Positions 4,055-42,420 of a stretch of DNA of 64,000 nucleotides are shown one piece after another (position 1 is the stretch's first letter; each line of letters opens with the position of its first letter). Where the stretch lies: assembly GCA_032718475.1 (NCBI GenBank), contig JAUCBJ010006956.1, forward strand, positions 62,001 to 126,000, in the 5' to 3' direction. This stretch comes from Nemertoderma westbladi (lineage: Eukaryota > Animalia > Xenacoelomorpha). A model generated the notes under the pieces. The model made no database searches, was not told the DNA's origin, and worked only from the letters and a program-made list of their open reading frames with translations. The position numbers were made by a program, and so were the translations under genes.

Positions 4055-6582
4055 TTACGTCGATGATTTGGCGGTGTCTTCCGTCTTTGTCTGTCCCTGA
4101 TTAGGTGCCTTATTCATTAGCTCTTCAGTGGGCTTACTCTCGCTCCATAGGTAACTCTGTCTCACAGCCGGAGACGGCCCTCCAGGGAACGATGGACCGG
4201 AGCCCAGTGGACTGATCGGCGAGTTCGGAGACGGAAGTCCTCCCGGGGCGAAAGTAAACTTGAGTTCGTTCGGGTTCGGCGGTTTCGAGTTCCACTTTAC
4301 CTTTTTATCCGAGGGAGGCGGGGCTGCCTCGACTACGATCTCTTTCTTCACTTTTACCGGCGGTGGTGGTGCAACTTTCTTGGGTTCCGTTGTTTTAGAA
4401 TCGACGGGTTTCACCTCCGAATCGTCGGTTTTTTTCCAGGGATGAGGATCCCCTCCACCACCTGCGATGTAAATCCCCCCGGCCGCTGCGGCTACGCCTT
4501 TTTCGTCGTTCTCCAACGCCTGAGCCTTTCCGACCGATGATTTTCTTGCTTCAGTGGCGAGAACTGACATATTGCTTACTTTGGCATCTACTTCTGGCTC
4601 TTCCTTGGTTTCTTCCGTTGGACTTTTCTCAGTTTTCTCCTCACCCTCAGCTGTTTTTTCTGTTAAATCTTCTTTACTAGCCGATTTATCCCCTTTACCC
4701 TTCTTCTTTTTCTCCTTCTTCTCCCGTTTCTCCCTCTCTTTTCTATCCTTTTCTTCTTTCTTTTTAGCCTCTTTCTCTTTTTTCTCCTGTGCCTTTCTCT
4801 CTTTATCCGTTAATTTAGCCACGACAACAGCTGCCGCTGCAACCTGGCCAACATCACCTTTTTTACTGCCAGTTGTGGGCTCATCTGATTTCTTTGCTTT
4901 ATCATCTACCTTCACTGCTGTATCATCTGCTTTCTTTGCTTTATCATCTACCTTCACTGCTGTATCATCTGCTTTCTTTGCTTTATCATCTACCTTCACT
5001 GCTGTATCATCTGCTTTCTTTGGTTTATCATCTACCTTCACTGTTGTTTCATCTGCTTTCTTAATTTTATCATCTGTCTTCTTAGCTTTATCTTCTGTCT
5101 TTACTGCTGTATCATCTGCTTTCTTGGTTTTACTATCTCCTTTACTTGCGGTATCGTCTGACTTCGGTGTGGTTTCTAGTAACTTTTTCCCAATCGCGCC
5201 ATCTTTCAAGACTTTTCCCTCAGACTTAATTGCTTCCGGCTTATCAACCTTCTTGGATTCATCAGTCTTTTTCTGTTCTGATATGTCTGGTTTGCTAGGA
5301 ATCTTTTCATCTTTCTTTATATCAGGTTTTACTGATGATTCCTGTTTAACAGGGGCTCCTTCAACATCATCTACTTTTTTTACCTTATCGGAAACCTTAG
5401 CAACAATTGTGTTGTCGGTCTCATCCTTTTGGGCTTTTGAATCCTTTTCACTAGAAACATCCTTGGCGTCTTTCATCTCTATAGGTAATTTTTTGTCTTT
5501 TGATACAACTTTTGCACCATCATCTCTCGAACTAGGTGGAACGTCAATGTCTATTATAGTATCTTTTATCTTTGGTTTCACATCTATATCTATCTTAACG
5601 TCATCCACCGATAAGGATTTATCTACATTATTTTCATCAAGTTTTGCCAATACTTGTTCAGGTGTCATTATGGTGTCATTGCCAACAACCTGCTTTGCAT
5701 CAGCTGTTGTTTCTACCTTTGCTTTCACCTCATCTTTACCTTTCATTCCCTCGGTACGGTACTTTACCCCGGCAACTCCGACACCACCAGCGGATTTCCC
5801 CTGAAGATCTTCTTTAACAATTGGGTCTGAACCTTTCTTTGTGTCGTCTTCCATTTGATTAAACTTGTCAGTCAATGCAGAAATGCCACTCCCACTAGGT
5901 TTCGAAATTGAATCATCCTTCTTTACTTCCTTACCATCCTCCAAGGACTTTTCCTTCTCTAAAAACGGCGAAACAACTTTATTTCCTTTTATGACATCAC
6001 TGGGAGCGGATTTCGAATTATTAGTTATTTCTGATGGCTTCTCACCAACTTTATCGATAGCCTTATCACTCACCAAATCTGCAGCTATGGGGTCTTTATT
6101 AATCTCAGCCTCCACTTTATGGACCGCATGTCCACTGTGTGACTTGTCTTTCTCTTCAACTGACTCGTCTGCCTCTTCACTGTGTTTCGCCATCATCGGA
6201 ACAGTCGCTCCTATTTTTGGAAGCGATTTCTGTGAATCTTTCTTTTCTGTCGAGTCAGGCATGTCGACGAATACCGCTTCCCTGCGTCGCGGAGACTCCT
6301 TCTTCTGAGTTTCATTAACCGCGGTAGACGGAGTCGCGTCTCCCATCGGTACTACAATCGGCGTGGTCGGCGTTGTCATGGGGATGATTGGTTGCTGTAC
6401 GATAGCGGATGCGGCGTGGTAGACGTTGGGGTTCGTCTTGTCCTGCTGAAGAACCAGGGGTTCGCTTCCCAGTCCCGAGTTCTGTATGATGATCGGAGTT
6501 ATCGGAGTCTGGGATCCGTCCGGGGCCTGAATATAGACCATGTTGGTGTTCTGGACGTTATAGCCAGTGGTGGGGGTCGCCG
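4055..6582 (-). CDS. TRPC: TRPC terminal exon: about 840-aa low-complexity K/D/E/P-rich cytoplasmic tail
   Basis: Acceptor ttttttttccccag at 6583-6584, phase 1, in frame with ORF 4055..6541. Contains [14 protein letters not shown] repeats and a K/E-rich tract. Confidence 0.85.
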
Positions 6583-9500
6583 CTGGGGAAAAAAAAGTGT
6601 GGAAAAACAGTATGTTAGTAACAAAATATTATACAAACGTAACGGAATAACCCGCATGCGAAAATTCTAATACACCACATAATACATAGGGCAGCAAATA
6701 ATATTAATATTGTTGTAGACTGTATTCACCATATACTGTACAGGCCTATTATATAACAACGTCCAATAGAGTTAATAATGATAATGAAATTACCTTGGAT
6801 AACGTTAACAGAAGGACTTTCGTGGTCAGATACTTTTATATTTGGCGTCCCTTTGGTCTTTTTCTGTAGAAAACTCGGCAATGGGGGCTGGCCTGGTGGT
6901 AGACCAATATCTCCCTAGAAGTATAATATTAAAAATTGTTAATTATAATTAATAGAGCGATTTAGAATAATAATATAGTATGGAAGTAAATAGTGAATAC
7001 AGTACGAACAGTTTTCGCTATTTATTAAAATTATTCAAGTCGTTAGTGTCTTATTAAGTTTTGCACTGTTTTGTATTGGTACAAAAATTTATTGTATGTT
7101 AATGAATTAAGCCATTTATATAAATTTAAAATATATAATAAAATAAATATAATTAAATATTAATTAATTAAAAATAATATAAAGAATAATATATAATATA
7201 AATTTCAGTTATACTGCAGGCAGAGTTATAAAAGGCAGATAGACAGACATACTGTAGCAATAAGTTAATTACTTACCGATGGAATTGATTGCTGAAAAAG
7301 AAATAAAAAATATAATCGAAAAATGCTATACGTACTTTGCTATTTGTGAGATTACAGAATTACCATAATACACTACTGTATGTTAAAAAATACAGTTTTT
7401 CCTCCTTCCCAACCCACTTGCATTCCACTCCCTTGTTAAGGAGGAGGGGGGGGGGGGGGGGGGGGGGTGTTAAGTAATTAACTAGAAATTATTTTATCCA
7501 AATTTATTGATGTTTTTCATACGTATAATTTTTCAAATAAATTAACACAATTTATGTAATTGGCACGTAACACTTTAAGCCGAAAAAAGTGGTCAAAACA
7601 TAAAAGTTTTCAAAAGCATGACATATACATATTTCGAAAGCTCAGAATTGTCTCTTTTTTTTAGTGCTAATCAGAGATAAAGCTAATTAAAACAGGACAA
7701 ATTAAAAAATAAAATGTGGTAAAATTTTACAAATCTGTCTCCCAGACTACAAATCTCAGACAAGTCTACGCTCGACAAGACTACATTTTGTAGTCTTGTA
7801 CAACTTCCAAGACTACATTGTAACCTTGGAAACTTGCTTATTACACATTATTTCATCTTTAAGCCCTTCGTACCTACTATTAAGTTCATTCAATACACTA
7901 TTATTGATTAGACTAAATCAAACAATTACCATTTAATTTAAATTTAATTTAAAATCCGGGATACGCCCCGGCGCTATATTAGATCTCTTAAATTAATTAA
8001 AAGAGTTAAAATGTGTTATATACGGAGCCCAGGAAGGGAAATGGGCTCCGTAGATACAACAGATATAGATGGACATGTAAAAATTAACGGAACTCTACAG
8101 AGCTCTACATAAATAGTCTCGGAATTTTTTTATAGCCTTGAATGTTGATTTCCAAGGAAAAACTTGTCTCAATATTTCGCGTAGTTGTAATAAACGTTAA
8201 CCCAATTTCATACCGCTAATAGATATGATATTTTGGAAGGTTCCATCAAATAGAACATAAAATTTTAGTATAGAAAAATTATATATGAAATATAATACTG
8301 AAATTTCAAGATATAATTTTTTTATGCAAAGAAGATGTTACAGAGGTTTTTCGACACATATATAATTTCCTTACACTTTATACTTGGGTTTCCTGTCGCG
8401 ATAAAATCGAAGGAAATGTACTGCAAGTAGTTTTACTGAACTGCAAATTATATGAGGATCACATGGGTATGTTATATATTTGCTAAACTTGTTTTTAATT
8501 CTTCATTTTCGATATATTATGACGCCACCTCTTCTAAAACAACACAAATTTTATTGACATGTCTACGTTTTTATGTATTTTTAGATTTACTTTCTCATGT
8601 TGTGTATAATTAAATTTGTGCTACAATTTTACAATTTATATATGTTAAAGATAAAAAAATTAGCTTTCGAACGATACTTGAATGACATAAATCCGTTTGG
8701 CAGTTAAGATTTTACAACTTTGACCAAAATCTTGGACATTTAATTCCTTAAAGTGTTACGTGCCGATTACATATTTTTAAAATGCAAAGGATCTTAGATG
8801 GATGGCTAGAATGTCATAATTTGTGCACAATGGGGTCATGAAACGACTGTATGAATTTTGATAAATGCTCCAGTTCAAAAATTATTTAAAAAATATTTTT
8901 TTCGACACATTTTGCAATTGTTACCTAAATTTGACACTTTTGACATATTTCAGCGACCGTGACCAAAATTTAAAAAGTGGTCATAGGTGGTGTTAGGCAC
9001 CCAGTCATCATTTATGCCAAATTTCACGTAAATTAGTTATTTTTTGGTAAAGCCTTTGCAATTTGAAATTTATAAAATGCATTCGCCAGAAAATCTATTT
9101 CAAGTATAATATGGTTAGGGTAAATAGGTTTGTTCATTGAAATGTTAGATATGTAAAGTACACCCAGTTAAACATTTTGTTGCAAGGGTTTTCTTTTGTT
9201 CGAGTGTGCCATATCCTGTCACTCACTCCTTACCTTCCGTTTCGGTTTGGTTTCTGTCCGAGTGTGCCTTATCCTGTCACTCACTCCTTACCTTCCGTTT
9301 CGGTTTGGTTTCTGTCCGAGTGTGCCTTATCCTGTCACTCACTCCTTACCTTCCGTTTCGGTTTGGTTTCTGTCCGAGTGTGCCTTATCCTGTCACTCAC
9401 TCCTTACCTTCCGTTTCGGTTTGGTTTCTGTCCGAGTGTGCCTTATCCTGTCACTCACTCCGTACCTTCTGATTCGGTTTGGTTTCTGTCCGAGTGTGCC

Positions 9501-12500
9501 TTATCCTGTCACTCACTCCTCACCTTCCGTTTCGGTTTGGTTTTTGTCCGAGTGTGCCTTATCCTGTCACTAACTCCTTACCTTCCGTTTCGGTTTGGTT
9601 TCTGTCCGAGTGTGCCCTATCCTGTCACTCACTCCTTACCTTCCGTTTCGGTTTGGTTTCTGTCCGAGTGTGCCTTATCCTGTCACTCACTCCTTACCTT
9701 CCGTTTCGGTTTGGTTTCTGTCCGAGTGTGCCTTATCCTGTCACTCACTCCTCACCTTCCGTTTCGGTTTGGTTTTTGTCCGAGTGTGCCTTATCCTGTC
9801 ACTAACTCCTTACCTTCCGTTTCGGTTTGGTTTCTGTCCGAGTGTGCCTTATCCTGTCACTCACTCCTTACCTTCCGTTTCGGTTTGGTTTCTGTCCGAG
9901 TGTGCCCTATCCTGTCACTCACTCCTTACCTTCCGTTTCGGTTTGGTTTCTGTCCGAGTGTGCCTTATCCTGTCACTCACTCCTTACCTTCCGTTTCGGT
10001 TTGGTTTCTGTCCGAGTGTGCCTTATCCTGTCACTCACTCCTTACCTTCCGTTTCGGTTTGGTTTCTGTCCGAGTGTGCCTTATCCTGTCACTCACTCCT
10101 TACCTTCCGTTTCGGTTTCTGTCCGAGTGTGCCATATCCTGTCACTCACTCCTTACCTTCCGTTTCGGTTTGGTTTCTGTCCGAGTGTGCCTTATCCTGT
10201 CACTCACTCCTTACCTTCCGTTTCGGTTTGGTTTCTGTCCGAGTGTGCCTTATCCTGTCACTCACTCCTTACCTTCCGTTTCGGTTTGGTTTCTGTCCGA
10301 GTGTGCCTTATCCTGTCACTCACTCCTTACCTTCCGTTTCGGTTTGGTTTCTGTCCGAGTGTGCCTTATCCTGTCACTCACTCCTTACCTTCCGTTTCGG
10401 TTTGGTTTCTGTCCGAGTGTGCCTTATCCTGTCACTCACTCCTTACCTTCCGTTTCGGTTTGGTTTCTGTCCGAGTGTGCCTTATCCTGTCACTCACTCC
10501 TTACCTTCCGTTTCGGTTTGGTTTCTGTCCGAGTGTGACTTATCCTGTCACTCACTCCTTACCTTCCGTTTCGGTTTGGTTTCTGTCCGAGTGTGCCTTA
10601 TCCTGTCACTCACTCCTTACCTTCCGTTTCGGTTTGGTTTCTGTCCAAGTGTGCCTTATCCTGTCACTCACTCCTTACCTTCCGTTTCGGTTTGGTTTCT
10701 GTCCGAGTGTGCCTTATCCTGTCACTCATTCCTTACCTTCCGTTTCGGTTTGGTTTCTGTCCGAGTGTGCCTTATCCTGGCACTCACTCCTTACCTTCCG
10801 TTTCGGTTTGGTTTCTGTCCGAGTGTGCCTTATCCTGGCACTCACTCCTTACCTTCCGTTTCGGTTTGGTTTCTGTCCGAGTGTGCCTTATCCTGTCACT
10901 CACTCCTTACCTTCCGTTTCGGTTTGGTTTCTGTCCGAGTGTGCCTTATCCTGTCACTCACTCCTTACCTTCCGTTTCGGTTTGGTTTTTGTCCGAGTGT
11001 GCATTCCCCTTCCACTCCCTCCACTGCGTTTTCTCGCATGGCCTTTCCCCTTTCCATCCTTATCGGTATCATCATCATCTTCGTCACGTTTCCGTAAAAG
11101 TTCAATAACCTCGTAGCGAAACGCCGAAATATCCTGAATAAAAGAAACGAAAGACGAACAAATTAACGTAATACGGGAAAACTTATTGGTTAATCAAATC
11201 GTTATTATCAAAAAATCCAGATTACGTAATATTAATTGCGAAAATTATTTCGTTAATTACAGCTAATACGCTACAATTATATAAAGTGCTAGTTTAAACG
11301 ATGTGAAGAAAATATAATTATTACACCGGTAAAAAGTATGCAATATTTTGTAAAATTTGAAGATATTATGACATCGATAAATTATATTATTACTTTCATC
11401 TCCATAGTCCAGCCCTTGAGCATGATTGGATTTAACGGTCAGGATAAATAAATGTATTAATATTATTTTGAGTACCTCAACACAGTCACTATAGTAACGG
11501 TTCTTCTACATAAATAACCTGTTTAATCTCATTGAGGTCGTCCTCTGTAACTGGTTTAATATCAGCACTCCGCTTCATGCTAGCTATGTAACGCTTCACT
11601 AAGTTACGGATCACTTCCTGTTAGTCGGGTTATTGTAAGAGAAATAAAGGGTTAATTATTGAATTTATAAGGGGATGAGATTGGTTAGTAAGGTAGTAAA
11701 GTGTTAATTGTAAAGGTCATTATGGTTAATAATTAAACCTCTATTTTGGGTACAAGTTAGTTATTATGTTAGATTATTTTATTAAGTGTTAATCGAAATA
11801 TTAGGTGGTTTCAATTAATCAGAAATAAATAATAAAACTTCCTCCAATGCTAGGTGCTATGGAAGTAGAAAGTGACAACTTGGAGTGAATTAAACTCATT
11901 TTTCCCGAACCTGTTTTATCTCGTTTAAATCGTCCTCTGTTACGGGATGAATATCGGCGTTTCGTTTTACCGAGATTATGTAACGCTTCACAATGTTGCT
12001 CATTACATCCTTGTTGTAATTAATTAGGTCATTAAATAAATAAAAATTGAATATTAATACGCAAAAATAATGCTATACGTAATGGCATTAAGTGATAACA
12101 AAAGTAATGTAATAATTATAACTATAGCGAATATTTATCTCTACTATACAATAGGTCCGTACCTGGTACTTTCTATCCGAATCTGCTAATTTCGTGGCGA
12201 GTTTCGTAATATTCCTTAGTCGATCTCCTTTCATTCCACCCGGAACCATGCGGAGGGCTACCCATTTACCGAAGTAGAAGAACGATTTGGGACTGGGGAT
12301 GATGTTAAATGGGGGTGGTAAGGTGGCCCCGTCGTCAAAGTAACTCATCCACAGACGAGAGCGAGCGAACTTCCATTCCACATCCGCGTGATCCTAAACA
12401 ACAACCTTATAATGACTTCCCCGTACACTGTACAGTAACTCTACCACGCTACAAAGTACAATAACTCCTCCAAGCTATACTCTACAGTGACTCTACCTTG

Positions 12501-15500
12501 CTACAAAGTACAATAACTCCTCCAAGCTATACTTTACTGTAACTCTACCTTGCTACAAAGTACAATAACTCCTCCAAGCTATACTCTACAGTAACTCTAC
12601 CTTGCTACAAAGTACAATAACTCCTCCAAGCTATACTCTACAACAACTCTACCTTGCTACAAAGTACAATAACTCATCCAAGCTATACTTTACTGTAACT
12701 CTACCTTGCTACAAAGTACAATAACTCCTCCAAGCTATACTCTACTGTAACTCTACCTTGCTACAAAGTACAATAACTCCTCCAAGCTATATTCTACAGT
12801 TACTCTACCTTGCTACAAAGTATAATAACTCCTCCAAGCTATACTTTACTGTAACTCTACCTTGCTACAAAGTACAATAACTCCTCCAAGCTATACTCTA
12901 CAGTAACTCTACCTTGCTACAAAGTACAATAACTCCTCCAAGCTATACTCTACTGTAACTCTACCTTGCTACAAAGTACAATAACTCCTCCAAGCTATAC
13001 TCTACAATAACTCTACCTTGCTACAAAGTACAATAACTCATCCAAGCTATACTTTACTGTAACTCTACCTTGCTACAAAGTACAATAACTCCTCCAAGCT
13101 ATACTCTACAATAACTCTACCTTGCTACACAGTCCAATAACTCCTCCAAGTTATACTCTAAGGTAACTCTACCTTGCTACAAAGTACAATAACTCATCCA
13201 AGTTATACTTTACTGTAACTCTACCTTGCTACAAAGTACAATAACTCCTCCAAGCTATATTCTACAGTAACTCTACCTTGCTACAAAGTACAATAACTCC
13301 TCCAAGCTATACTCTACAGTAACTCTACCTTGCTACAAAGTACAATAACTCCTCCAAGCTATACTCTACAATAACTCTACCTTGCTACAAAGTACAATAA
13401 CTCCTCCAAGCTATACTCTACTGTAACTCTACCTTGCTACAAAGTACAATAACTCCTCCAAGCTATACTCTACAATAACTCTACCTTGCTACAAAGTACA
13501 ATAACTCCTCCAAGCTATACTCTACAATAACTCTACCTTGCTACTAAGTACAATAACTCCTCCAAGCTATACTCTACAGTGACTCTACCTTGCTACAAAG
13601 TACAATAACTCATCCAAGCTATACTTTACTGTAACTCTACCTTTGCACAAAGTACAATAACTCATCCAAGCTATGCTTTACTGTAACTCTACCTTGCTAC
13701 AAAGTACAATAACTCCTCCAAGCTATACTCTACAATAACTCTACCTTGCTACACAGTACAATAACTCCTCCAAGTTATACTCTAAGGTAACTCTACCTTG
13801 CTACAAAGTACAATAACTCATCCAAGCTATACTTTACTGTAACTCTACCTTGCTACAAAGTACAATAACTCCTCCAAGCTATACTCTACAATAACTCTAC
13901 CTTGCTACACAGTACAATAACTCCTCCAAGCTATACTCTACTGTAACTCTACCTTGCTACAAAGTACAATAACTCCTCCAAGCTATACTCTACAATAACT
14001 CTACCTTGCTACACAGTACAATAACTCCCCCAAGCTATACTCTACAATAACTCTATACCTTGCTACAAAGTACAATAACTCCCCCAAGCTATACTCTACA
14101 ATAACTCTACCTTGCTACAAAGTACAATAACTCATCCAAGCTATACTTTACTGTAACTCTACCTTGCTACAAAGTACAATAACTCCTCCAAGCTATACTC
14201 TACAATGACTCTACCTTGCTACAAAGTACAATAACTCCTCCAAGCTATACTCTACAATAACTCTACCTTGCTACAAAGTACAATAACTCCTCCAAGCTAT
14301 ACTCTACAATAACTCTACCTTGCTACACCTTGCTACAAAGTACAATAACTCCTCCAAGCTATACTCTACAATAACTCTACCTTGCTACACCTTGCTACAA
14401 AGTACAATAACTCCTCCAAGCTATACTCTACAGTGACTCTACCTTGCTACAAAGTTCAATAACTCCTCCAAGCTATACTCTACAATAACTCTACCTTGCT
14501 ACACCTTGCTACAAAGTACAATAACTCCTCCAAGCTATACTCTACAGTGACTCTACCTTGCTACAAAGTACAATAACTCCTCCAAGCTATACTCTACAAT
14601 AACTCTACCTTGCTACACCTTGCTACAAAGTACAATAACTCCTCCAAGCTATACTCTACAGTGACTCTACCTTGCTACAAAGTACAATAACTCCTCCAAG
14701 CTATACTTTACTGTAACTCTACCTTGCTACAAAGTACAATAACTCTTCCAAGCTATACTCTACAATAACTCTACCTTGCTACAAAGTACAATAACTCACC
14801 CAAGCTATACTTTACTGTAACTCTACCTTGCTACAAAGTACAATAACTCCTCCAAGCTATACTCTACAATAACTCTACCTTGCTACAAAGTACAATAACT
14901 CCTCCAAGCTATACTCTACAATAACTCTACCTTGCTACAAAGTACAATAACTCATCCAAGCTATACTTTACTGTAACTCTACCTTGCTACAAAGTACAAT
15001 AACTCCTCCAAGCTATACTCTACAATAACTCTACCTTGCTACACAGTACAATAACTCATCCAAGCTATACTTTACTGTAACTCTACCTTGCTACAAAGTA
15101 CAATAACTCCTACAAGCTATACTTTACAATAACTCTACCTTGCTACAAAGTACAATAACTCCTCCAAGCTTTACTTTACTGTAACTCTACCTTGCTACAA
15201 AGTACAATAACTCCTCCAAGCTATACTCTACAGTAACTCTACTTTGCTACAAAGTACAATAACTCCTCCAAGCTATACTCTACAGTAACTCTACCTTGCT
15301 ACAAAGTACAATAACTCATCCAAGTTATACTCTACAATAACTCTACCTTGCTACACAGTACAATAACTCCTCCAAGTTATACTCTAAGGTAACTCTACCT
15401 TGCTACAAAGTACAATAACTCATCCAAGCTATACTTTACTGTAACTCTACCTTGCTACAAAGTACAATAACTCCTCCAAGCTATACTCTACAGTAACTCT

Positions 15501-21500: not shown

Positions 21501-24500
21501 CCAAACATACTCAACTTGCCACTACCAAACATACTCAACTTGCCACTACCAAACATACTCAACTTGCCTGTACCAAACATGCTCAACTTGCCACTACCAA
21601 ACATACTCAACTTGCATGTACCAAACATACTCAACTTGCCACTACCAAATATACTCAACTTGCCTGTACCAAACATACTCAACTTGCCACTACCAAACAT
21701 ACTCAACTTGCGACTTCCAAACATACTCAACTTGCCTGTACCAAACATACTAAACTTGCCTGTACCAAACATACTAAACTTGCCTAAACATACTAAACTT
21801 GCCTGTACCAAACATACTCAACTTGCCACTACCAAACATACTCAACTTGCCTGTACCAAACATACTAAATTTGCCACTACCAAATATACTCAACTTGTCT
21901 GTACCAAACATACTCAATTTGCCACTACCAAACATACTCAACTTGCGACTACCAAACATACTCAACTTGCCTGTACCAAACATACTAAACTTGACTGTAC
22001 CAAACATACTAAATTTGCCTGTACCAAACATACTAAACCTGCCTGTCCAAATATATTCAACTTGCCTGTACCAAACATACTCAACTTGCCACTACCAAAC
22101 ATACTCAACTTGCCTGTACCAAACATACTCAACTTGCCACTACCAAACATACTCAACTTGCCTGTACCAAACATACTCAACTTGCCATTACCAAACATAC
22201 GCAACTTGCCACTACCAAACATACTCAACTTGCCTGTACCAAACATACTCAACTTGCCATTACCAAACATACTCAACTTGCCACTACCAAACATACTCAA
22301 CTTGCCTGTACCAAACATACTCAACTTGCCTGTACCAAACATGCTCAACTTGCCACTACCAAACATACTCAACTTGCCTGTACCAAACATACTCAACTTG
22401 CCACTACCAAACATACTCAACTTGCCTGTACTAAACATACTCAACTTGCCACTACCAAACATACTCAACTTGCCACTACCAAACATACTCAACTTGCCAC
22501 TACCAAACATACTCAACTTGCCTGTACCAAACATACTCAACTTGCCACTACCAAACATACTCAACTTGGCACTACCAAACATACTCAACTTGCCTGTACC
22601 AAACATACTAAACTTGCCTGTACCAAACATACTAAACCTACTAAACCTGCCTGTCCAAATATATACAACTTGCCTGTACCAAACATACTCAACTTGCCAC
22701 TACCAAACATACTCAACGTGCCACTACCAAACATACTTAACTTGCCACTACCAAACATACTCAACTTGCCACTACCAAACATACTGAACTTGCCACTACC
22801 AAACATACTCAACTTGCCACTACCAAACATACTCAACTTGGCACTACCAAACATACTCAACTTGCCTGTACCAAACATACTAAACTTGCCTGTACCAAAC
22901 ATACTAAACCTGCCTGTCCAAATATATACAACTTGCCTGTACCAAACATACTCAACTTGACACTACCAAACATACTCAACGTGCCACTACCAAACATACT
23001 TAACTTGCCACTACCAAACATACTAAACTTGCCACTACCAAACATACTGAACTTGCCACTACCAAACATACTCAACTTGCCACTACCAAACATACTCAAC
23101 TTGCCACTACCAAACATACTCAACTTGCCACTACCAAACATACTCAACTTGCCACTACCAAACATACTCAACTTGCCTGTACCAAACATACTCAACTTGC
23201 CACTACCAAACATACTCAACTTGGCACTACCAAACATACTCAACTTGCCACTACCAAACATACTCAACTTGCCTGTACCAAACATACTCAACTTACCACT
23301 ACCAAACATACTCAACTTGCCTGTACCAAACATACTAAACTTGCCTGTCCAAATATATTCAACTTGCCACTACCAAACATACTCAACTTGCCTGTACCAA
23401 ACAAACTCAACTTGCCTGTACCAAACAAACTCAACTTGCCTGTACCAAACATACTCAACTTGCCTGTACTAAACATACTGAACTTGCCTGTACCAAAAAT
23501 ACTCAATGTGCCACTACCAAACATACTCAACTTGCCTGTACCAAATATACTAAACTTGCCTGTACCAAATATACTAAACCTGCCTGTCCAATTATATTCA
23601 ACTTGCCTGTACCAAACATACTCAACTTGCCACTACCAAACATACTCAACTTGCCTGTACCAAACATACTCAACTTGCAACTACCAAAGATACTCAACTT
23701 GCCACTACCAAACTTACTCAACTTGCCTGTACCAAACATACTCAACTTGCCACTACCAAACATACTCAACTTGCCTGTACCAAACATACTCAACTTGCCA
23801 CTACCAAAGATACTCAACTTGCCACTACCAAACTTACTCAACTTGCCATTATCAAACATACTCAACTTGCCACTACCAAACATACTCAACTTGCCTGTAC
23901 CAAACATACTCAACTTGCCATTACCAAACATACTCAACTTGCCACTACCAAACATACTCAACTTTCCTGTACCAAACATACTCAACTTGCCACTACTAAA
24001 CATACTCAACTTGCCACTACCAAACATACTCAACTTGCCTGTACCAAACATACTAAACTTGCCTGTACCAAACATACTAAACCTGCCTGTCCAAATATAT
24101 TCAACTTACCTGTACCAAACATACTCAACTTGCCATTACCAAACATACTCAACTTGCCACTACCAAACATACTTAACTTGCCACTACCAAACATACTCAA
24201 CTTGCCACTACCAAACATACTCAACTTGCCTGTACCAAACATACTAAACTTGCCTGTCCAAATATAATCAACTTGCCTGTACCAAACATACTCAACTTTC
24301 CACTACCAAACATACTCAACTTGCCACTGCACTACCAAACATACTCAACTTACCTGTACCAAACATACTATACTTGTCTGTACCAAACATACTAAACCTG
24401 CCTGTCCAAATATATTCAACTTGCCTGCACCAAACACCCCAACTCCCTATGAACCTCACCACCGGGTATCTGCCGTCACCCCAACTTCCTATGAACCTCA

Positions 24501-27500
24501 CCACCGGGTATCTGCCGTCACCCCAACTCCATATGAACCTCACCACCGGGTATCTGCCGTCACCCCAACTCCCTATGAACCTCACCACCGGGTATCTGCC
24601 GTCACCCCAACTCCCTATGAACCTCACCACCGGGTATCTGCCGTCACCCCAACTCCCTATGAACCTCACCACCACCGGGTATCTGCCGTCACACCAACTC
24701 CCTATGAACCTCACCACCACCGGGTATCTGCCGTCATACCAACTCCCTATGAACCTCACCACCACCGGGTATCTGCCGTCACCCTAACTCCCTATGAACC
24801 TCACCACCGGGTATCTGCCGTCACCCCAACTCCATATGAACCTCACCACCGGGTATCTGCCGTCACCCCAACTCCCTATGAACCTCACCACCGGGTATCT
24901 GCCGTCACCCCAACTCCCTATGAACCTCACCACCACCGGGTATCTGCCGTCACCCCAACTCCATATGAACCTCACCACCGGGTATCTGCCGTCACCCCAA
25001 CTCCCTATGAACCTCACCACCACCGGGTATCTGCCGTCACACCAACTCCCTATGAACCTCACCACCACCGGGTATCTGCCGTCACCCTAACTCCCTATGA
25101 ACCTCACCACCGGGTATCTGCCGTCACCCCAACTCCATATGAACCTCACCACCGGGTATCTGCCGTCACCCCAACTCCCTATGAACCTCACCACCACCGG
25201 GTATCTGCCGTCACCCCAACTCCATATGAACCTCACCACCGGGTATCTGCCGTCACCCCAACTCCCTATGAACCTCACCACCACCGGGTATCTGCCGTCA
25301 CCCCAACTCCCTATGAACCTCACCACCACCGGGTATCTGCCGTCACCCCAACTCCATATGAACCTCACCACCACCGGGTATCTGCCGTCACCCCAACTCC
25401 CTATGAACCTCACCACCACCGGGTATCTGCCGTCACCCCAACTCCCTATGAACCTCACCACCGGGTATCTGCCGTCACCCCAACTCCCTATGAACCTCAC
25501 CACCACTGGGTATCTGCCGTCACCCCAACTCCCTATGAACCTCACCACCACCGGGTATCTACCGTCACCCCAACTCCCTATGAACCTCACCACCACCGGG
25601 TATCTGCCGTCACACCAACTCCATATGAACCTCACCACCACCGGGTATCTGCCGTCACCCCAACTCCCTATGAACCTCACCACCACCGGGTATCTGTCGT
25701 CACCCCAACTCCATATGAACCTCACCACCGGGTATCTGCCGTCACCCCAACTCCCTATGAACCTCACCACCACCGGGTATCTGCCGTCACCCCAACTCCC
25801 TATGAACCTCACCACCACCGGGTATCTACCGTCACCCCAACTCCCTATGAACCTCACCACCACCGGGTATCTGCCGTCACACCAACTCCATATGAACCTC
25901 ACCACCACCGGGTATCTGCCGTCACCCCAACTCCCTATGAACCTCACCACCACCGGGTATCTGCCGTCACCCCAACTCCCTATGAACCTCACCACCGGGT
26001 ATCTGCCGTCACACCAACTCCCTATGAACCTCACCACCACCGGGTATCTGCCGTCACACCAACTCCCTATGAACCTCACCACCACCGGGTATCTGTCGTC
26101 ACCCCAACTCCATATGAACCTCACCACCGGGTATCTGCCGTCACCCCAACTCCCTATGAACCTCACCACCACCGGGTATCTGCCGTCACACCAACTCCCT
26201 ATGAACCTCACCACCACCGGGTATCTGTCGTCACCCCAACTCCATATGAACCTCACCACCGGGTATCTGCCGTCACACCAACTCCCTATGAACCTCACCA
26301 CCACCGGGTATCTGCCGTCACCCCAACTCCCTATGAACCTCACCACCACCGGGTATCTGCCGTCACCCCAACTCCCTATGAACCTCACCACCGGGTATCT
26401 GCCGTCACCCCAACTCCCTATGAACCTCACCACCACCGGGTATCTGCCGTCACCCCAACTCCCTATGAACCTCACCACCGGGTATCTGCCGTCACCCCAA
26501 CTCCCTATGAACCTCACCACCGGGTATCTGCCGTCACCCCAACTCCCTATGAACCTCACCACCACCGGGTATCTGCCGTCACACCAACTCCCTATGAACC
26601 TCACCACCGGGTATCTGCCGTCACCCCAACTCCCTATGAACCTCACCACCACCGGGTATCTGCCGTCACACCAACTCCATATGAACCTCACCACCACCGG
26701 GTATCTGCCGTCACCCCAACTCCCTATGAACCTCACCACCACCGGGTATCTGTCGTCACCCCAACTCCATATGAACCTCACCACCGGGTATCTGCCGTCA
26801 CACCAACTCCCTATGAACCTCACCACCACCGGGTATCTGCCGTCACCCCAACTCCCTATGAACCTCACCACCACCGGGTATCTGCCGTCACCCCAACTCC
26901 CTATGAACCTCACCACCGGGTATCTGCCGTCACCCCAACTCCCTATGAACCTCACCACCACCGGGTATCTGCCGTCACCCCAACTCCCTATGAACCTCAC
27001 CACCGGGTATCTGCCGTCACCCCAACTCCCTATGAACCTCACCACCGGGTATCTGCCGTCACCCCAACTCCCTATGAACCTCACCACCACCGGGTATCTG
27101 CCGTCACCCCAACTCCCTATGAACCTCACCACCACCGGGTATCTGCCGTCACCCCAACTCCCTATGAACCTCACCACCGGGTATCTGCCGTCACCCCAAC
27201 TCCCTATGAACCTCACCACCGGGTATCTGCCGTCACCCCAACTCCCTATGAACCTCACCACCGGGTATCTGCCGTCACCCCAACTCCCTATGAACCTCAC
27301 CACCGGGTATCTGCCGTCACCCCAACTCCCTATGAACCTCACCACCACCGGGTATCTGCCGTCACCCCAACTCCATATGAACCTCACCACCGGGTATCTG
27401 CCGTCACCCCAACTCCCTATGAACCTCACCACCGGGTATCTGCCGTCACCCCAACTCCCTATGAACCTCACCACCACCGGGTATCTGCCGTCACACCAAC

Positions 27501-30500
27501 TCCCTATGAACCTCACCACCACCGGGTATCTGCCGTCACACCAACTCCCTATGAACCTCACCACCACCGGGTATCTGCCGTCACCCCAACTCCCTATGAA
27601 CCTCACCACCACCGGGTATCTACCGTCACCCCAACTCCCTATGAACCTCACCACCACCGGGTATCTGCCGTCACACCAACTCCATATGAACCTCACCACC
27701 ACCGGGTATCTGCCGTCACCCCAACTCCCTATGAACCTCACCACCACCGGGTATCTGTCGTCACCCCAACTCCATATGAACCTCACCATCGGGTATCTGC
27801 CGTCACCCCAACTCCCTATGAACCTCACCACCACCGGGTATCTGCCGTCACCCCAACTCCCTATAAACCTCACCACCACCGGGTATCTGCCGTCACACCA
27901 ACTCCATATGAACCTCACCACCACCGGGTATCTGCCGTCACCCCAACTCCCTATGAACCTCACCACCACCGGGTATCTGTCGTCACCCCAACTCCATATG
28001 AACCTCACCACCGGGTATCTGCCGTCACACCAACTCCCTATGAACCTCACCACCACCGGGTATCTGCCGTCACCCCAACTCCCTATGAACCTCACCACCA
28101 CCGGGTATCTGCCGTCACCCCAACTCCCTATGAACCTCACCACCGGGTATCTGCCGTCACCCCAACTCCCTATGAACCTCACCACCACCGGGTATCTGCC
28201 GTCACCCCAACTCCCTATGAACCTCACCACCACCGGGTATCTACCGTCACCCCAACTCCCTATGAACCTCACCACCGGGTATCTGTCGTCACCCCAACTC
28301 CATATGAACATCACCACCGGGTATCTGCCGTCACACCAACTCCCTATGAACCTCACCACCACCGGGTATCTGCCGTCACCCCAACTCCATATGAACCTCA
28401 CCACCACCGGGTATCTGCCGTCACCCCAACTCCCTATGAACCTCACCACCACCGGGTATCTGCCGTCACCCCAACTCCCTATGAACCTCACCACCACCGG
28501 GTATCTGCCGTCACCCCAACTCCATATGAACCTCACCACCACCGGGTATCTGCCGTCACCCCAACTCCCTATGAACCTCACCACCACCGGGTATCTGCCG
28601 TCACCCCAACTCCCTATGAACCTCACCACCGGGTATCTGCCGTCACCCCAACTCCCTATGAATCTCACCACCACCGGGTATCTGCCGTCACCCCAACTCC
28701 CTATGAACCTCACCACCACCGGGTATCTGCCGTCACCCCAACTCCCTATGAACCTCACCACCGGGTATCTGCCGTCACACCAACTCCCTATGAACCTCAC
28801 CACCACCGGGTATCTGCCGTCACCCCAACTCCATATGAACCTCACCACCACCGGGTATCTGCCGTCAAACCAACTCCCTATAAACCTCACCACACCACCG
28901 GGTATCTGCCGTCACCCCAACTCCCTATGAACCTCACCACCACCGGGTATCTGCCGTCACACCAACTCCCTATGAACCTCACCACCACCGGGTATCTGCC
29001 GTCACCCCAACTCCATATGAACCTCACCACCACCGGGTATCTGCCGTCAAACCAACTCCCTATAAACCTCACCACACCACCGGGTATCTGCCGTCACCCC
29101 AACTCCCTATGAACCTCACCACCACCGGGTATCTGCCGTCACCCCAACTCCCTATGAACCTCACCACCACCGGGTATCTGCCGTCAAACCAACTCCCTAT
29201 AAACCTCACCACACCACCGGGTATCTGCCGTCACCCCAACTCCCTATGAACCTCACCACCGGGTATCTGCCGTCAAACCAACTCCCTATAAACCTCACCA
29301 CACCACCGGGTATCTGCCGTCACCCCAACTCCCTATGAACCTCACCACCACCGGGTATCTGCCGTCACCCCAACTCCCTATGAACCTCACCACCACCGGG
29401 TATCTGCCGTCAAACCAACTCCCTATAAACCTCACCACACCACCGGGTATCTGCCGTCACCCCAACTCCCTATGAACCTCACCACCACCGGGTATCTGCC
29501 GTCAAACCAACTCCCTATAAACCTCACCACACCACCGGGTATCTGCCGTCACCCCAACTCCCTATGAACCTCACCACCGGGTATCTGCCGTCACACCAAC
29601 TCCCTATGAACCTCACCACCACCGGGTATCTGCCGTCACCCCAACTCCCTATGAACCTCACCACCACCGGGTATCTGCCGTCACCCCAACTCCCTATGAA
29701 CCTCACCACCACCGGGTATCTGCCGTCACCCCAACTCCATATGAACCTCACCACCACCGGGTATCTGCCGTCACCCCAACTCACCTGAACCATCCGGCCC
29801 AATGAAATCTGCAGTGGACCGAGATGTGCGCTGGCAATAAAAAGGAACAGAAGTCGCAGCATACTGAATATATTGGCCACGGCAAATAAACCGTCAGCGA
29901 TAATCAGAGGGTCGTCGCCGGACCAATACTTCCGCGGGAAATCGGGGTCGTGCCAACCCTACAAACGGTAAACCAAAACAGAAAGTAAATCGGGGTCGTG
30001 CCAACCCTACAAACAGTAAACCAAAACAGAAAGTAGATCGGGGTCGTGCCAACCTTATAAACGGTAAAGAAAAACAGAAGTAAATCGGGGTCGTGCCAAC
30101 CCTACAAACGGTAAACCAAAACAGAAAGTAAATCGGGGTCGTGCCAACCCTACAAACGGTAAACCAAAACAGAAAGTAAATCGGGGTCGTGCCAACCCTA
30201 CAAACGGTAAACCAAAACAGAAAGTAAATCGGGGTCGTGCCAACCCTACAAACGGTAAACCAAAACAGAAAGTAAATCGGGGTCGTGCCAACCCTACAAA
30301 CGGTAAACCAAAACAGAAAGTAAATCGGGGTCGTGCCAACCCTACAAACGGTAAACCAAAACAGAAAGTAAATCGGGGTCGTGCCAACCCTACAAACGGT
30401 AAACAAAAACAGAAAGTTAATCGGGGTCGTGCCAACCCTACAAACGGTAAACCAAAACAGAAAGTAAATCGGGGTCGTGCCAACCCTACAAACGGTAAAC

Positions 30501-33500
30501 AAAAACAGAAAGTAAATCGGGGTCGTGCCAACCCTACAAACGGTAAACAAAAACAGAAAGTTAATCGGGGTCGTGCCAACCCTACAAACGGTAAACAAAA
30601 ACAGAAAGTAAATCGGGGTCGTGCCAACCCTACAAACGGTAAACCAAAACAGAAAGTAAATCGGGGTCGTGCCAACCCTACAAACGGTAAACAAAAACAG
30701 AAAGTTAATCGGGGTCGTGCCAACCCTACAAACGGTAAACCAAAACAGAAAGTAAATCGGGGTCGTGCCAACCCTACAAACGGTAAACCAAAACAGAAAG
30801 TAAATCGGGGTCGTGCCAACCCTACAAACGGTAAACCAAAACAGAAAGTAAATCGGGGTCGTTCCAACCCTACAAACGGTAAACCAAAACAGAAAGTAAA
30901 TCGGGGTCGTGCCAACCCTACAAACGGTAAACCAAAACAGAAAGTAAATCGGGGTCGTGCCAACCCTACAAACGGTAAACCAAAACAGAAAGTAAATCGG
31001 GGTCGTGCCAACCCTACAAACGGTAAACCAAAACAGAAAGTAAATCGGGGTCGTGCCAACCCTACAAACGGTAAACAAAAACAGAAAGTAAATCGGGGTC
31101 GTGCCAACCCTACAAACGGTAAACAAAAACAGAAAGTAAATCGGGGTCGTGCCAACCCTACAAACGGTAAACAAAAACAGAAAGTAAATCGGGGTCGTGC
31201 CAACCCTACAAACGGTAAACAAAAACAGAAAGTAAATCGGGGTCGTGCCAACCCTACAAACGGTAAACAAAAACAGAAAGTAAATCGGGGTCGTGCCAAC
31301 CCTACAAACGGTAAACCAAAACAGAAAGTAAATCGGGGTCGTGCCAACCCTACAAACGGTAAACCAAAACAGAAAGTAAACAGTAAACATATAGATAGTT
31401 ACGGTAAACAAAGAGTAACTGTACCCTTGAAAAAGGTGAAATAAATGTAAGAAATTAATCAGGGTGGGTTAATAAAATAGCAAGAGACTTATCATGATGT
31501 ACATACATACATATGTACATATGAGTATAGTTTCTTCGTTTCTCGAAGGTCACGCGCGAAAATTGAACTTAGAAAATTTCTAGACTTGTTACGTTTAAAT
31601 ACGAATCTACAGATTTACAGACACAACGATCAATATAGTTGTACCCGTATTCTAAGCTTGCATACTGCCGTGGCTCGCCCCACATCAGCCACACCACACC
31701 TAATGCACCGGTTGGATCAGCCATGTAAATTCACAATTAATTTCCATTAAGAGATGTGCCCTTTATTAATCTTATAAGTATCTATATAGACCAATGTCTT
31801 TTAGCAGACCTTTCAGTAATGTAAATGGCTGACCGCCACTATTTCCTCTCGCAGCCGGTTCATAGATAAATAACACGCAGAGTCAGTTATATGATCAGTA
31901 ACACCGGAAGTCCAATTATGTAAATACAATTAATACATATTCCGCGGGTTACCGACGGTGAACCTACAAGTATGTCTCTACAATTCGGAAGGTTAAACCT
32001 TCCAATGTTTTGCCATATTCGGTACCGTTCCAAACAAAGTTTATTGCGTAGAATTGACACAACTTGCAATTCTATTTTACGTGAGATCTCGCGTATTTGT
32101 AGTATTAACTCAATATCACGTATTCTTTCTTAGGTATGATTTCAGTGACCTACTTACTCATACTCTGTGCTTGATTTGTTGTGTGCTTGTTTTACTCGTT
32201 TTTATGGGCTAAGGCCTGGATTAAAGGGAATAATAATAATAATAACATAAGAGTAGTGCCATGGTACTTACCTTGATGTAAACAATAGACCTTAGTGCTA
32301 TGGTGGCCAAATATAAGGAGTTCATGAAGAAATCTAAGAGATTCCACCAATCGGAAGTGTATTCTACAAATCCACTCTCCCAGACTTCTTTGATTTCCGA
32401 CCAAATCTTTCCTACAATATGTCACATAAACGGATAATAGAATACAGTAAATGGTATTATACAGCATATTGATAGTATATGTAACCTACAGCTACACGGG
32501 TAATACCATATTACTAATTAATAATTATTTACCATACGTGTTTAATATGGTAAACCTTTGAAATTATACAGGCTATATACTAAAACACATAACTTACAAT
32601 AGTATGCTCACATTTCCAAAAAATGTGTCTTTTTCTATATTATTCGAACTTCGCATTCTATTTATATGATGTGCACATACTGCATTTTCTTCTTCCACTT
32701 ACTTCATTCACGGTATAAATACCCTGTTTACTATATTTATTTATTTACTATTTATTTTTAGTCCAAATCCAAGTGAGGAAATCGAGCCATGCATCAAACT
32801 TAGGAATACTCAAATAATCACTAGAAGGAGACAAAGGTTAATCAGATTATTGGAGCGGGTTGCTTCTAGTGTTGGTCTTTTTGTTAAATCTTATAAAACT
32901 AAAATTTTGACAGTTTTAACTTCGACAGTTCGCAGGAAATGACTCATGATATGTTATGGGGCATATACACCAATGATGGTGTGCTTCGTGCTTGATCATG
33001 TTGATGACTTCTGCTGCTTGCGATCATGGATCCGGAAGTCCGGAAGTTCGACCTTCGAATGCGAATAGTCTGTCCAAGATTAAGTCACAAAATAGAACGG
33101 GTGAGGCGATGATAGTCTATGTGTACATTATATAAAATACTGTAGGATAGGTTTATTATGCCTAGGATATATTTTATAAACATTAAAAGTTTAACATGAA
33201 TAGAAAATAAAATGACACTCATTCATTCACACGAAATATTAACTAATTATGGAATCCATATAACTGGAACTTTAAACAATATTGGTTGCAGTGTGGGGTG
33301 TGGGAGGGGCGCGGAAGAAGAAAAATATCTATTCTAAACATATTTACTTAGATGTTAGTGCAAAGTTAAGTTAAAATTTAGTGTAAAGAAATAGAACAAA
33401 AGTGACAAGCAGTCACCGAAAGTAAACAGTTGCCAATTAAGTGCATAAAATCGAGTTCTCAGGTGAACATTTCAAAGGCATTCAAATGAACACGGAACAG

Positions 33501-37687: not shown

Positions 37688-37887
37688 CTGAAAAAGGAAC
37701 AAATCAGATATAATACTCGTTGGAGGAAATAAATTAAAAAGTAAACCGAAGAAGCTTTTTAAAGGCCAAATAATTATTGTATTTATTTCAAAATCATTAA
37801 GACGTGTGTGAAATCGAAGCATAAATCCCCCCCCCCCCCCATATTAAATAGCCTGTGAGATGAGCTCCAACATGAAATATAGAAGGA

Positions 37888-40800: not shown

Positions 40801-42420
40801 TCACATTGAATCCCATATCCGCCTTCTTACCACCCTACTCACATTGAATCCCATATCCGCCTTCTTACCACCCCATTCACATTGAATCCCATATCCGCCT
40901 TCTTACCACCCTACTCACATTGAATCCCATATCAGCCTTCTTGCCACCCTACTCACATTGAATCCCATATCCGCCTTCTTACCACCCTACTCACATTGAA
41001 TCCCATATCAGCCTTGTTGCCACCCTACTCACATTGAATCCCATATCCGCCTTCTTACCACCCTACTCACATTGAATCCCATATCAGCCTTCTTGCCACC
41101 CTACTCACATTGAATCCCATATCCGCCTTCTTACCACCCTACTCACATTGAATCCCATATCCGCCTTCTTGCCGCCCCACTCACATTGCATCCCATATCC
41201 ACCTTCTTACCACCCTACTCACATTGAATCCCATATCCGCCTTCTTACCACCCTACTCACATTGAATCCCATATCAGCCTTCTTGCCGCCCCACTCACAT
41301 TGCATCCCATATCCACCTTCTTACCATCCTACTCACATTGAATCCCATATCCGCCTTCTTACCACCCTACTCACATTGAATCCCATATCAGCCTTCTTGC
41401 CGCCCCACTCACATTGCATCCCATATCCACCTTCTTACCACCCTACTCACATTGAATCCCATATCCGCCTTCTTACCACCCTACTCACATTGAATCCCAT
41501 ATCAGCCTTCTTACCACCCCATTCACATTGAATCCCATATCCGCCTTCTTACCACCCTACTCACATTGAATCCCATATCCGCCTTCTTGCCGCCCCACTC
41601 ACATTGCATCCCATATCCACCTTCTTACCACCCTACTCACATTGAATCCCATATCCGCCTTCTTACCACCCTACTCACATTGAATCCCATATCAGCCTTC
41701 TTGCCACCCTACTCACATTGCATCCCATATCCACCTTCTTACCATCCTACTCACATTGAATCCCATATCCGCCTTCTTACCACCCTACTCACATTGAATC
41801 CCATATCAGCCTTCTTGCCACCCTACTCACATTGAATCCCATATCCGCCTTCTTGCCGCCCCACTCACATTGCATCCCATATCCACCTTCTTACCACCCT
41901 ACTCACATTGAATCCCATATCCGCCTTCTTGCCGCCCCATTCACATTGAATCCCATATCCGCCTTCTTGCCGCCCTACTCACATTGAATCCCATATCCGC
42001 CTTCTTGCCGCCCTACTCACATTGAATCCCATATCCGCCTTCTTACCACCCTACTCACATTGAATCCCATATCCGCCTTCTTGCCGCCCTACTCACATTG
42101 AATCCCATATCCGCCTTCTTACCACCCTACTCACATTGAATCCCATATCAGCCTTCTTGCCACCCTACTCACATTGAATCCCATATCCGCCTTCTTGCCG
42201 CCCCACTCACATTGCATCCCATATCCACCTTCTTACCACCCTACTCACATTGAATCCCATATCCGCCTTCTTGCCGCCCTACTCACATTGAATCCTATAT
42301 CCGCCTTCTTACCACCCTACTCACATTGAATCCCATATCCGCCTTCTTGCCGCCCTACTCACATTGAATCCCATATCCGCCTTCTTGCCGCCCCACTCAC
42401 ATTGATTCCCATATCCGCCA
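37888..42420. repeat. 38-bp minisatellite (about 119 copies) with one inverted unit
   Basis: Unit attgaatcccatatccgccttcttgccgccc(c/t)actcac; inverted copy at 38009-38043. Confidence 0.95.

What the first reader, a model, noticed from the sequence alone, without database searches (positions are those of the whole stretch)
9198..11002. About 31 tandem copies of a complete splice donor, with the seeding microhomology still visible
Seen: the 58-bp unit is 34 nt of exon end plus AAG|GTAAGG and 24 nt of intron. Read-through past the first donor gives GTA AGG AGT GAG TGA (stop), so use of any distal donor removes the roughly 890-aa tail. The array ends in GCACACTCGAACAAAA, nearly identical to exonic GCACACTCGGACAAAA, consistent with slippage between short direct repeats flanking the donor. 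It mirrors the acceptor array at 29940-31381.
Basis: partly seen in the sequence, partly recalled or inferred. Interest (0 to 1): 0.75.

Follow-up and report, generated by a model that had tools for sequence, protein, structure and literature searches.

The report
Splice-donor "mirage" minisatellite in TRPC gene
The end of one exon of an animal TRPC ion-channel gene, with its splice signal, is repeated 31 times into the next intron, but the one spliced RNA seen (from another individual) uses only the first signal, so this is likely a tolerated example of a repeat type already described in human, lancelet and chicken genes.

Summary
Window 11002-9194 (minus strand) has 31 units of 58 bp, each 34 nt of exon end plus 24 nt of intron. 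All 31 keep the GT, and 28 share the identical donor AAG|GTAAGG. The host is a TRPC-family channel gene. A spliced contig from run X4 holds one exon copy and joins the first donor to a 15-nt microexon; its 1971 letters equal the first-donor prediction, against 2029 for donor 2. Whether that animal carries the array is unknown. DNA contigs from two samples show the repeat junction, so it is not an assembly artefact. The class is known: human F7, 6-16, CBS, lamin B2 and PDGF (PMC1557585), lancelet "mirages" (PMC3087553), chicken exon stuttering (PMC12954441). This scan noted it before on other DNA: 67 notes in at least 28 genomes, and 16 of 19 notes on this genome fit (unchecked). The seeding-microhomology claim cannot be told from a truncated 32nd unit. 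Crowding of arrays at splice sites is only suggestive (P 0.05-0.24). Verdict: real, ordinary, likely neutral.

The parts
9194..11002 (-). 58-bp minisatellite, 31 full units plus a 16-nt partial unit; unit = last 34 nt of the exon + first 24 nt of the intron
10969..11133 (-). 165-nt phase-0 coding exon (DISAFRYEV...KPKRK) of a TRPC-family gene; its last 34 nt are unit 1
   Evidence: tblastn to TRPC5; spliced X4 contig covers 11132-10969 with 0 differences
10967..10968 (-). authentic (first) donor GT
   Evidence: X4 contig leaves the window at 10969 and goes on into the microexon
10954..10956 (-). in-frame TGA reached on read-through past donor 1 (after V-R-S-E)
   Evidence: sequence
9194..9209 (-). 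terminal partial unit, 15 of 16 identical to the start of unit 1 (seed or truncated 32nd unit)
7277..7291 (-). 15-nt microexon, next exon after the array
   Evidence: AG/GT flanks; letters between the joint in X4 (table 5c, table 7)
6794..6914 (-). 121-nt exon of the C-terminal tail
   Evidence: X4 contig piece and CT..AC joint 6582/6794
4055..6582 (-). last coding exon (long charged, low-complexity tail)
   Evidence: ORF; X4 and X5 contigs
11519..11617 (-). upstream exon joined to the array-bearing exon in RNA (one of a twin pair; twin at 11911-12009)
   Evidence: X4 joint 11132/11518, skip 385, CT..AC
29939..31380 (-). 48-bp acceptor-spanning array of the same gene, 30 units, 29 with TAG; not tested in RNA
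24435..29791 (-). 45-bp array starting at the donor of exon 29958-29785; only the first in-register unit has the GT at that place (probable decayed donor mirage)

Best explanation
This is a minisatellite whose first unit spans the exon-intron boundary of a TRPC-family gene, so the donor is repeated 31 times; the spliced RNA seen uses the first donor, and the other 30 are likely silent or nearly so, making the array a likely tolerated by-product of a repeat-prone genome. Steps: (1, inferred) a 58-bp segment across the junction was duplicated by slippage or unequal exchange; (2, shown in the variant pattern, mechanism inferred) it grew by block duplication and homogenisation, leaving the edge units distinct; (3, shown for one contig, mechanism inferred from F7) position and not strength picks the donor, since 28 donors are identical: the spliceosome likely commits to the first donor after the exon's acceptor (165-nt exon against 223, 281, ...); (4, inferred) any leak to donors 2-31 meets a stop after 4 codons and is likely degraded, so selection against the array is weak. 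Such arrays survive at exon edges likely because G/GC-rich sequence (exons 45.5% GC, unique intron 32.7%) expands readily and an edge duplication leaves the reading frame intact.
For: Array anatomy. One X4 contig of 1971 letters runs 11619-11518, 11132-10969 (0 differences, including the A that marks unit 1 and only 2 of the 30 other units), microexon, 6915-6794, 6582-5014; predicted length 1971 with donor 1, 2029 with donor 2. X4 depth in the two array-edge bins (25.3, 21.3) is fully explained by that contig. No acceptor-like AG in the unit: pyrimidine share 0.17-0.39 before its 7 AGs against 0.50-0.89 before 18 of 18 real acceptors. Variant blocks recur (B-I-B-J-K, B-I-J-K). Extra repeat copies make 62% of intron length in 4055-37687. 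Copy number tracks sense-strand G content over 9 arrays (Spearman 0.92, p 0.0005; post hoc, best of three measures). Same outcome reported for F7, lamin B2, PDGF (PMC1557585) and lancelet mirages (PMC3087553).
Against: X4 is another animal (14 differences in 1569 nt of the last exon) and no DNA of it was laid, so it may lack the array. Contigs drop rare forms, so low-level distal use is not excluded; in human 6-16 and CBS two distal donors are used (PMC1557585 Introduction). All 31 GTs are intact, whereas the 45-bp array of the same gene lost the GT in its distal units; with 12 variant types over 58 positions this has little power. Large arrays sit at splice sites a little more often than the simple null gives (3 of 5 against 0.56, P 0.011; 2 of 4 against 0.41 without this array, P 0.054). 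X4 is labelled 'DNA?' by the tool; I read it as RNA because it skips introns and has no cover on unique intron.
Confidence: 0.73

Rival explanations
1. The array is a working switch or rheostat: a regulated or allele-dependent share of transcripts uses donors 2-3 or reads into the array, giving decay or a tail-less channel that keeps pore, TRP box and coiled coil but lacks 887 residues.
For: All 31 GTs intact, 28 identical to the real donor. The stop falls after the last TRPC-conserved segment. Distal use is reported for human 6-16 and CBS (PMC1557585). The gene has three twin-exon pairs, so it is alternatively spliced elsewhere. Two AATAAA lie in the intron downstream (8555, 7508).
Against: The only spliced contig has one exon copy and X4 has no further contig on the unit. 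Units are 98.9% identical throughout, so intact donors reflect youth and homogenisation as easily as selection. Many unrelated genes of this genome are noted with the same layout (unchecked), which argues against a gene-specific device.
Confidence: 0.1
2. Origin rival: a mutational process tied to exon edges or to splicing itself (for example polymerase pausing or R-loops at junctions) seeds arrays there preferentially in this lineage, beyond what base composition and frame tolerance explain.
For: 2 clear and 1 probable of 8 arrays in the gene overlap a splice site against 0.94 expected; 3 of 5 among arrays over 1 kb against 0.56. All 9 arrays have G above C on the sense strand (skew 0.07-0.69). 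16 of 19 earlier notes on this genome fit the words 'splice tandem array' (selected by readers, unchecked).
Against: P is 0.24 for two or more and 0.053 for three or more; without the focal array 0.18. The window was picked for this feature. Array GC equals exon GC (45.5% each), so composition alone could give the pattern. No whole genome was available for a real test.
Confidence: 0.17
3. The array is an assembly artefact or inflated from a few copies.
For: Both DNA samples are flagged as possible sources of the window; no listed contig spans the array.
Against: X2 shows a goes-back-58 joint at depth 594.6 against 21.3-21.5 on long flanking contigs; X1 has an 88-letter (58+30) unit contig at 285.3 against 10-38.6; X3 780 against 33.1 in the edge bin (rough ratios, not copy numbers). 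Variant units of the window (the +strand T>G at unit position 38 and the unit-44 variant) recur in sample S1.
Confidence: 0.02

Closest known systems
Human F7 intron 7 37-bp VNTR, with the 6-16, CBS intron 13, lamin B2 and PDGF intron 4 arrays it cites (Borensztajn et al. 2006, PMC1557585; seen: abstract, synopsis, Introduction, 11 passages; the four other genes only as cited there)
   Same: First unit spans the exon-intron boundary; identical donors follow; the most upstream is used (F7, lamin B2, PDGF). Copy numbers 5-9, about 26, 15-20, 10-15, 16-18 bracket ours closely.
   Different: 31 copies and 34 nt of exon per unit (F7: 4 nt); an invertebrate-type TRPC gene; same gene also has an acceptor array. 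Scanning was tested by mutation in F7, not here.
Lancelet 'mirage' minisatellites: globins BflGb6/BflGb9, Adh3 (PMC3087553; seen: 6 passages), PGBD5 and troponin C (PMC3902484; seen: 1 passage)
   Same: Tandem copies of exon-intron boundaries at both 5' and 3' edges, most with intact signals, normal mRNA, concerted evolution with edge units excluded.
   Different: More copies than BflGb6 (6 and 3 units); organism not placed among lancelets; allele and somatic length variation not measured here.
Exon stuttering on chicken dot chromosomes (Hron et al. 2026, PMC12954441; seen: abstract, 12 of 17 passages, first part of Discussion)
   Same: Introns filled by local repeats, some copied from the exon edge with its splice site; exon part median 36 bp (ours 34), 1-44 copies (ours 30 extra).
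   Different: Described for GC-rich avian dot chromosomes, 3.4% of their introns; here unique intron is 33% GC, repeats are near-perfect, and the animal is not a bird by protein identity.
TRPC/TRP-gamma channel family (host gene)
   Same: Ankyrin end, S1-S6, pore, TRP box and coiled coil align to TRPC5; pore exon 42-46% identical to hemichordate, mollusc, echinoderm, nematode and tardigrade TRPC-like proteins.
   Different: 887-aa tail after this exon; three twin-exon pairs; no close relative found, lineage not placed.

Membership tests
Junction-spanning minisatellite (F7 IVS7 type / 'mirage') | Head-to-tail repeat of minisatellite unit length (10-160 bp in the cited cases) | tested here: met
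   58 bp x 31.2
Junction-spanning minisatellite (F7 IVS7 type / 'mirage') | First unit contains a real exon-intron boundary | tested here: met
   spliced contig leaves at 10969, 34 nt into unit 1
Junction-spanning minisatellite (F7 IVS7 type / 'mirage') | Splice signal reiterated in the intron | tested here: met
   31 of 31 GT, 28 of 31 identical 9-mers
Junction-spanning minisatellite (F7 IVS7 type / 'mirage') | Normal mRNA is made through the exon-proximal site | tested here: met
   one X4 contig, 1971 letters, one exon copy
Junction-spanning minisatellite (F7 IVS7 type / 'mirage') | Distal sites silent or minor in an animal that carries the array | tested here: inconclusive
   array status of the X4 animal unknown; X5 (same sample as array-bearing X1) had 0 contigs on the exon
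Junction-spanning minisatellite (F7 IVS7 type / 'mirage') | Length or composition varies between alleles | tested here: inconclusive
   X1's last unit differs from the window's (6 differences to unit 1, 7 to 8823-9266), which fits a different distal end by inference; lengths not resolved
Junction-spanning minisatellite (F7 IVS7 type / 'mirage') | Concerted evolution inside, edge units set apart | tested here: met
   unit 1 and the terminal partial share an A that 28 of the 30 other units lack; repeated variant blocks
Exon stuttering (chicken dot chromosomes) | Repeat-filled introns with exon-edge fragments | tested here: met
   62% of intron length is extra repeat copies; two clear junction arrays
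Exon stuttering (chicken dot chromosomes) | Avian dot-chromosome, GC-rich setting | tested here: not met
   unique intron 32.7% GC; best bird TRPC5 hits only 52-76% identical over part of the best-conserved exon
Exon stuttering (chicken dot chromosomes) | Extensive intron length variation within the species | not testable with these tools
   only contigs, none spanning the array
Recursive splice-site or mini-exon array | Acceptor (polypyrimidine tract + AG) in each unit | tested here: not met
   pyrimidine share 0.17-0.39 before 7 of 7 AGs; sense strand 9% T
Direct-repeat-seeded minisatellite (Haber-Louis / Taylor-Breden models, as cited in PMC3389668) | Incomplete terminal unit | tested here: met
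   16-nt partial at 9209-9194
Direct-repeat-seeded minisatellite (Haber-Louis / Taylor-Breden models, as cited in PMC3389668) | The short direct repeats pre-date the duplication (single-copy ancestral allele) | not testable with these tools
   no single-copy allele or related genome found

The most novel reading that the evidence does not exclude
In this animal lineage exon edges are preferred birth sites of large minisatellites through a process tied to transcription or splicing, and this array is an allele-variable rheostat: longer alleles leak more transcripts to distal donors and so lower, or truncate by 887 residues, the TRPC channel.
Probability: 0.08. Interest if true: 0.6.

Novelty: new member of a known kind. 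Interest (0 to 1): 0.2.

Why it matters
As it stands it matters little: one more junction-spanning minisatellite. It does give a natural test of donor choice among 28 identical sites outside mammals, with an acceptor-side twin in the same gene. If such arrays proved enriched at exon edges genome-wide, this genome would be a good model for how they arise and for intron gain from them (a model proposed in PMC3087553). Practical point: gene predictors and short-read aligners can misplace this donor.

Tried and rejected
No whole genome is held, so no genome-wide count. No RNA holder was listed as such; X4 was read as RNA from its joints. X5 had 0 contigs on 10925-12490; that blank is no evidence. 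Two protein searches (818 of 856 and 23 of 62 candidates passed) found no close relative, so neither the lineage nor an orthologous single-copy intron was found. RNA folding of 11060-10829 gave no notable structure (z -1.54, 19 of 200 shuffles as good), so a hairpin masking distal donors is not supported. Recursive splicing inside the array rejected. A transposon end truncating the array was looked for: the nearest terminal-inverted-repeat element is 7553-8773, over 400 nt from the array end, so not supported. N-terminal ankyrin exons were not found in the window. My first exon model had one boundary off by one base (many stops); corrected; the enrichment figures carry that 1-nt error. The 38-bp array was left out of the 8-array count because it lies upstream of the first confirmed exon. 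The 6-16 paper (PMC306954) is not held. Searches for a genome-wide enrichment study listed PMC2812944 (listing only, not read). No supplementary files were read; those of PMC12954441 and PMC3087553 may hold further cases.
Full report
Observation. Tandem Repeats Finder gives 9197-11002, period 58, 31.2 copies, 97% matches. On the minus strand there are 31 full units (30 of 58 nt, one with a 5-nt deletion) and a 16-nt partial unit at 9209-9194. Each unit is 34 nt of exon end and 24 nt of intron. All 31 keep the GT; 28 read AAG|GTAAGG, 2 AAG|GTGAGG and 1 AAG|GTACGG. Reading past donor 1 gives V-R-S-E-stop.

Host gene. An exon at 12393-12163 hits TRPC5 proteins (818 of 856 candidates passed), and tblastn with two TRPC5 proteins maps the channel from 37.7 kb to 11.1 kb on the minus strand. 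An 18-exon model has AG/GT at every internal boundary and is open for 1582-1586 aa in 8 of 8 choices of three twin-exon pairs. The array-bearing exon is 11133-10969; 887 aa follow it. The pore exon is 42-46% identical to hemichordate, mollusc, echinoderm, nematode and tardigrade TRPC-like proteins (23 of 62 candidates). The animal is not placed, and no whole genome is held.

Is the array real? Five runs from three studies hold the gene's last exon (5 of 8 listed). In X2 a contig goes back 58 letters at depth 594.6, against 21.3-21.5 on long flanking contigs. X1 has an 88-letter unit contig at 285.3 against 10-38.6, and X3 has 780 against 33.1. These are rough ratios and not copy numbers, but they fit tens of copies. 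Both samples are flagged as possible sources of the window. X1's last unit differs from the window's (6 differences to unit 1), the number expected if the window's unit-27 variant sits at the end; so a second allele with a different distal end is likely (inference).

Which donor is used? X4 is labelled 'DNA?', but it skips introns at CT..AC ends and has no cover on unique intron, so I read it as RNA. One contig of 1971 letters (depth 125.2) runs 11619-11518, 11132-10969 with 0 differences, the 15-nt microexon 7291-7277, 6915-6794 and 6582-5014. The predicted length is 1971 with donor 1 and 2029 with donor 2. X4's depth in the two array-edge bins is fully explained by this contig. Limits: X4 is another animal (14 differences in 1569 nt), whose array status is unknown; contigs drop rare forms; X5, from the array-bearing sample S1, had no contig on this exon.

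Mechanism. Since 28 donors are identical, strength cannot choose. In human F7, mutagenesis showed that identical downstream donors are functional but the most upstream is selected, by 5'-to-3' scanning, with exon size also contributing (PMC1557585; abstract, Introduction and passages). I infer the same here: donor 1 gives a 165-nt exon, the next ones 223, 281, 339 nt. The unit has no acceptor (pyrimidine share 0.17-0.39 before 7 of 7 AGs, against 0.50-0.89 for 18 of 18 real acceptors), so it cannot form mini-exons or recursive sites. No notable RNA structure was predicted (z -1.54). A distal-donor transcript would stop about 45 nt before the next junction and upstream of three junctions, a likely target of nonsense-mediated decay (recalled, untested). 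Leak is possible: human 6-16 and CBS use two distal donors (as cited in PMC1557585).

Origin. Variant units recur in blocks, and unit 1 and the terminal partial share a base that 28 of the 30 other units lack; lancelet mirages show the same exclusion of edge units (PMC3087553). An incomplete last unit is the signature of slippage models, with seeds of 5-10 bp, or 5-20 bp and mostly 7 in one survey (PMC3389668 passages). A chance 15/16 match has P about 8e-4 within 100 x 100 positions, so the 16-mer may as well be a truncated 32nd unit. Only a single-copy allele can decide.

Context. Extra repeat copies are 62% of intron length between 4055 and 37687. Of 8 arrays there, two clearly span a splice site (this one; the 48-bp acceptor array, 29 of 30 units with TAG) and one probably does (45-bp array; only the first in-register unit keeps the GT). 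A uniform-seed null expects 0.94: P 0.24 for two or more, 0.053 for three or more; without the focal array, 0.18 for two or more of 7. For arrays over 1 kb, 3 of 5 against 0.56 (P 0.011), or 2 of 4 against 0.41 (P 0.054), post hoc. Arrays and exons are both 45.5% GC and unique intron 32.7%; copy number follows sense-strand G content (Spearman 0.92, n 9, best of three measures). Composition plus frame tolerance is a sufficient reading; a junction-specific process is not excluded.

Comparison with what is known. The layout is in print for human F7, 6-16, CBS, lamin B2 and PDGF, lancelet globins, Adh3, troponin C and PGBD5 ('mirages') and chicken dot chromosomes ('exon stuttering', exon part median 36 bp, 1-44 copies). 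It meets the testable defining features of that class; silence of distal donors in a carrier and length polymorphism stay inconclusive. Earlier notes of this scan report the same layout in 67 findings from at least 28 genomes and in 16 of 19 notes on this genome, some with hundreds to about 2,100 copies. These notes are unchecked; they gave me the 'mirage' wording, two papers and the GC idea.

Verdict. Real, correctly described, a new member of a known kind, and small by this genome's reported standard. Most likely tolerated (0.73). Interest 0.2. The twin pore, S1 and coiled-coil exons of the host gene are listed as noticed in passing.

Noticed in passing
window 19407-19173 and 17826-17598 (minus): Twin pore-helix/filter/S6 exons (58% nt identity), both AG/GT and in frame; including both shifts the frame, so they are likely mutually exclusive. 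An X4 contig joins exon 12393 to the 19.2-kb twin. A Toxocara protein model carries two pore segments in tandem; earlier notes report the same in octopus TRPC (unchecked). One paper search (8 listings, none read) showed no obvious report.
   Followed up: partly
window 33970-33793 and 33726-33543 (minus): Twin S1-region exons (59% nt identity), 66 nt apart; including both shifts the frame. Not tested in RNA.
   Followed up: partly
window 12009-11911 and 11617-11519 (minus): Twin 99-nt coiled-coil exons (71% nt identity); both together stay in frame; X4 uses the 11617 twin next to the array-bearing exon. With the other two pairs, 8 open combinations.
   Followed up: partly
window 24435-29791 (minus): 45-bp array of about 121 units begins at a donor; the distal units resemble the exon end but lack the GT there, as if the duplicated donor decayed before expansion. 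It abuts a 24-bp array (20498-24436) without a gap.
   Followed up: partly
window 37887-42419 (minus): 38-bp array, 104 of 117 units with AAT|GTGAGT; a 36-nt open stretch ending in its first unit could be a small exon, which would make it a further donor mirage, but its acceptor is weak and homology is unconvincing.
   Followed up: partly
window 12427-16992 (minus): 52-bp array (87 copies) ends 33 nt before an acceptor; its goes-back-52 joint is seen in X1.
   Followed up: partly
window 7291-7277 (minus): 15-nt microexon (Q-S-I-P-S) included in the X4 transcript.
   Followed up: yes
window 7553-8773: Element with 27-nt terminal inverted repeats (96%) in the same intron, high depth in DNA runs: likely a non-autonomous DNA transposon.
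   Followed up: partly
window 46981-51954 and 57853-60942 (minus): A 1657-aa frame with gag-like zinc knuckle and protease-like motifs and a 1029-aa endonuclease/reverse-transcriptase-like frame (labels recalled from motifs, not searched), probably retroelements in an upstream intron.
   Followed up: no
window 43145-43270 and 54355-54480: The same translated stretch occurs at both places, so a dispersed repeat or long terminal repeat flanks the 47-52 kb frame.
   Followed up: no
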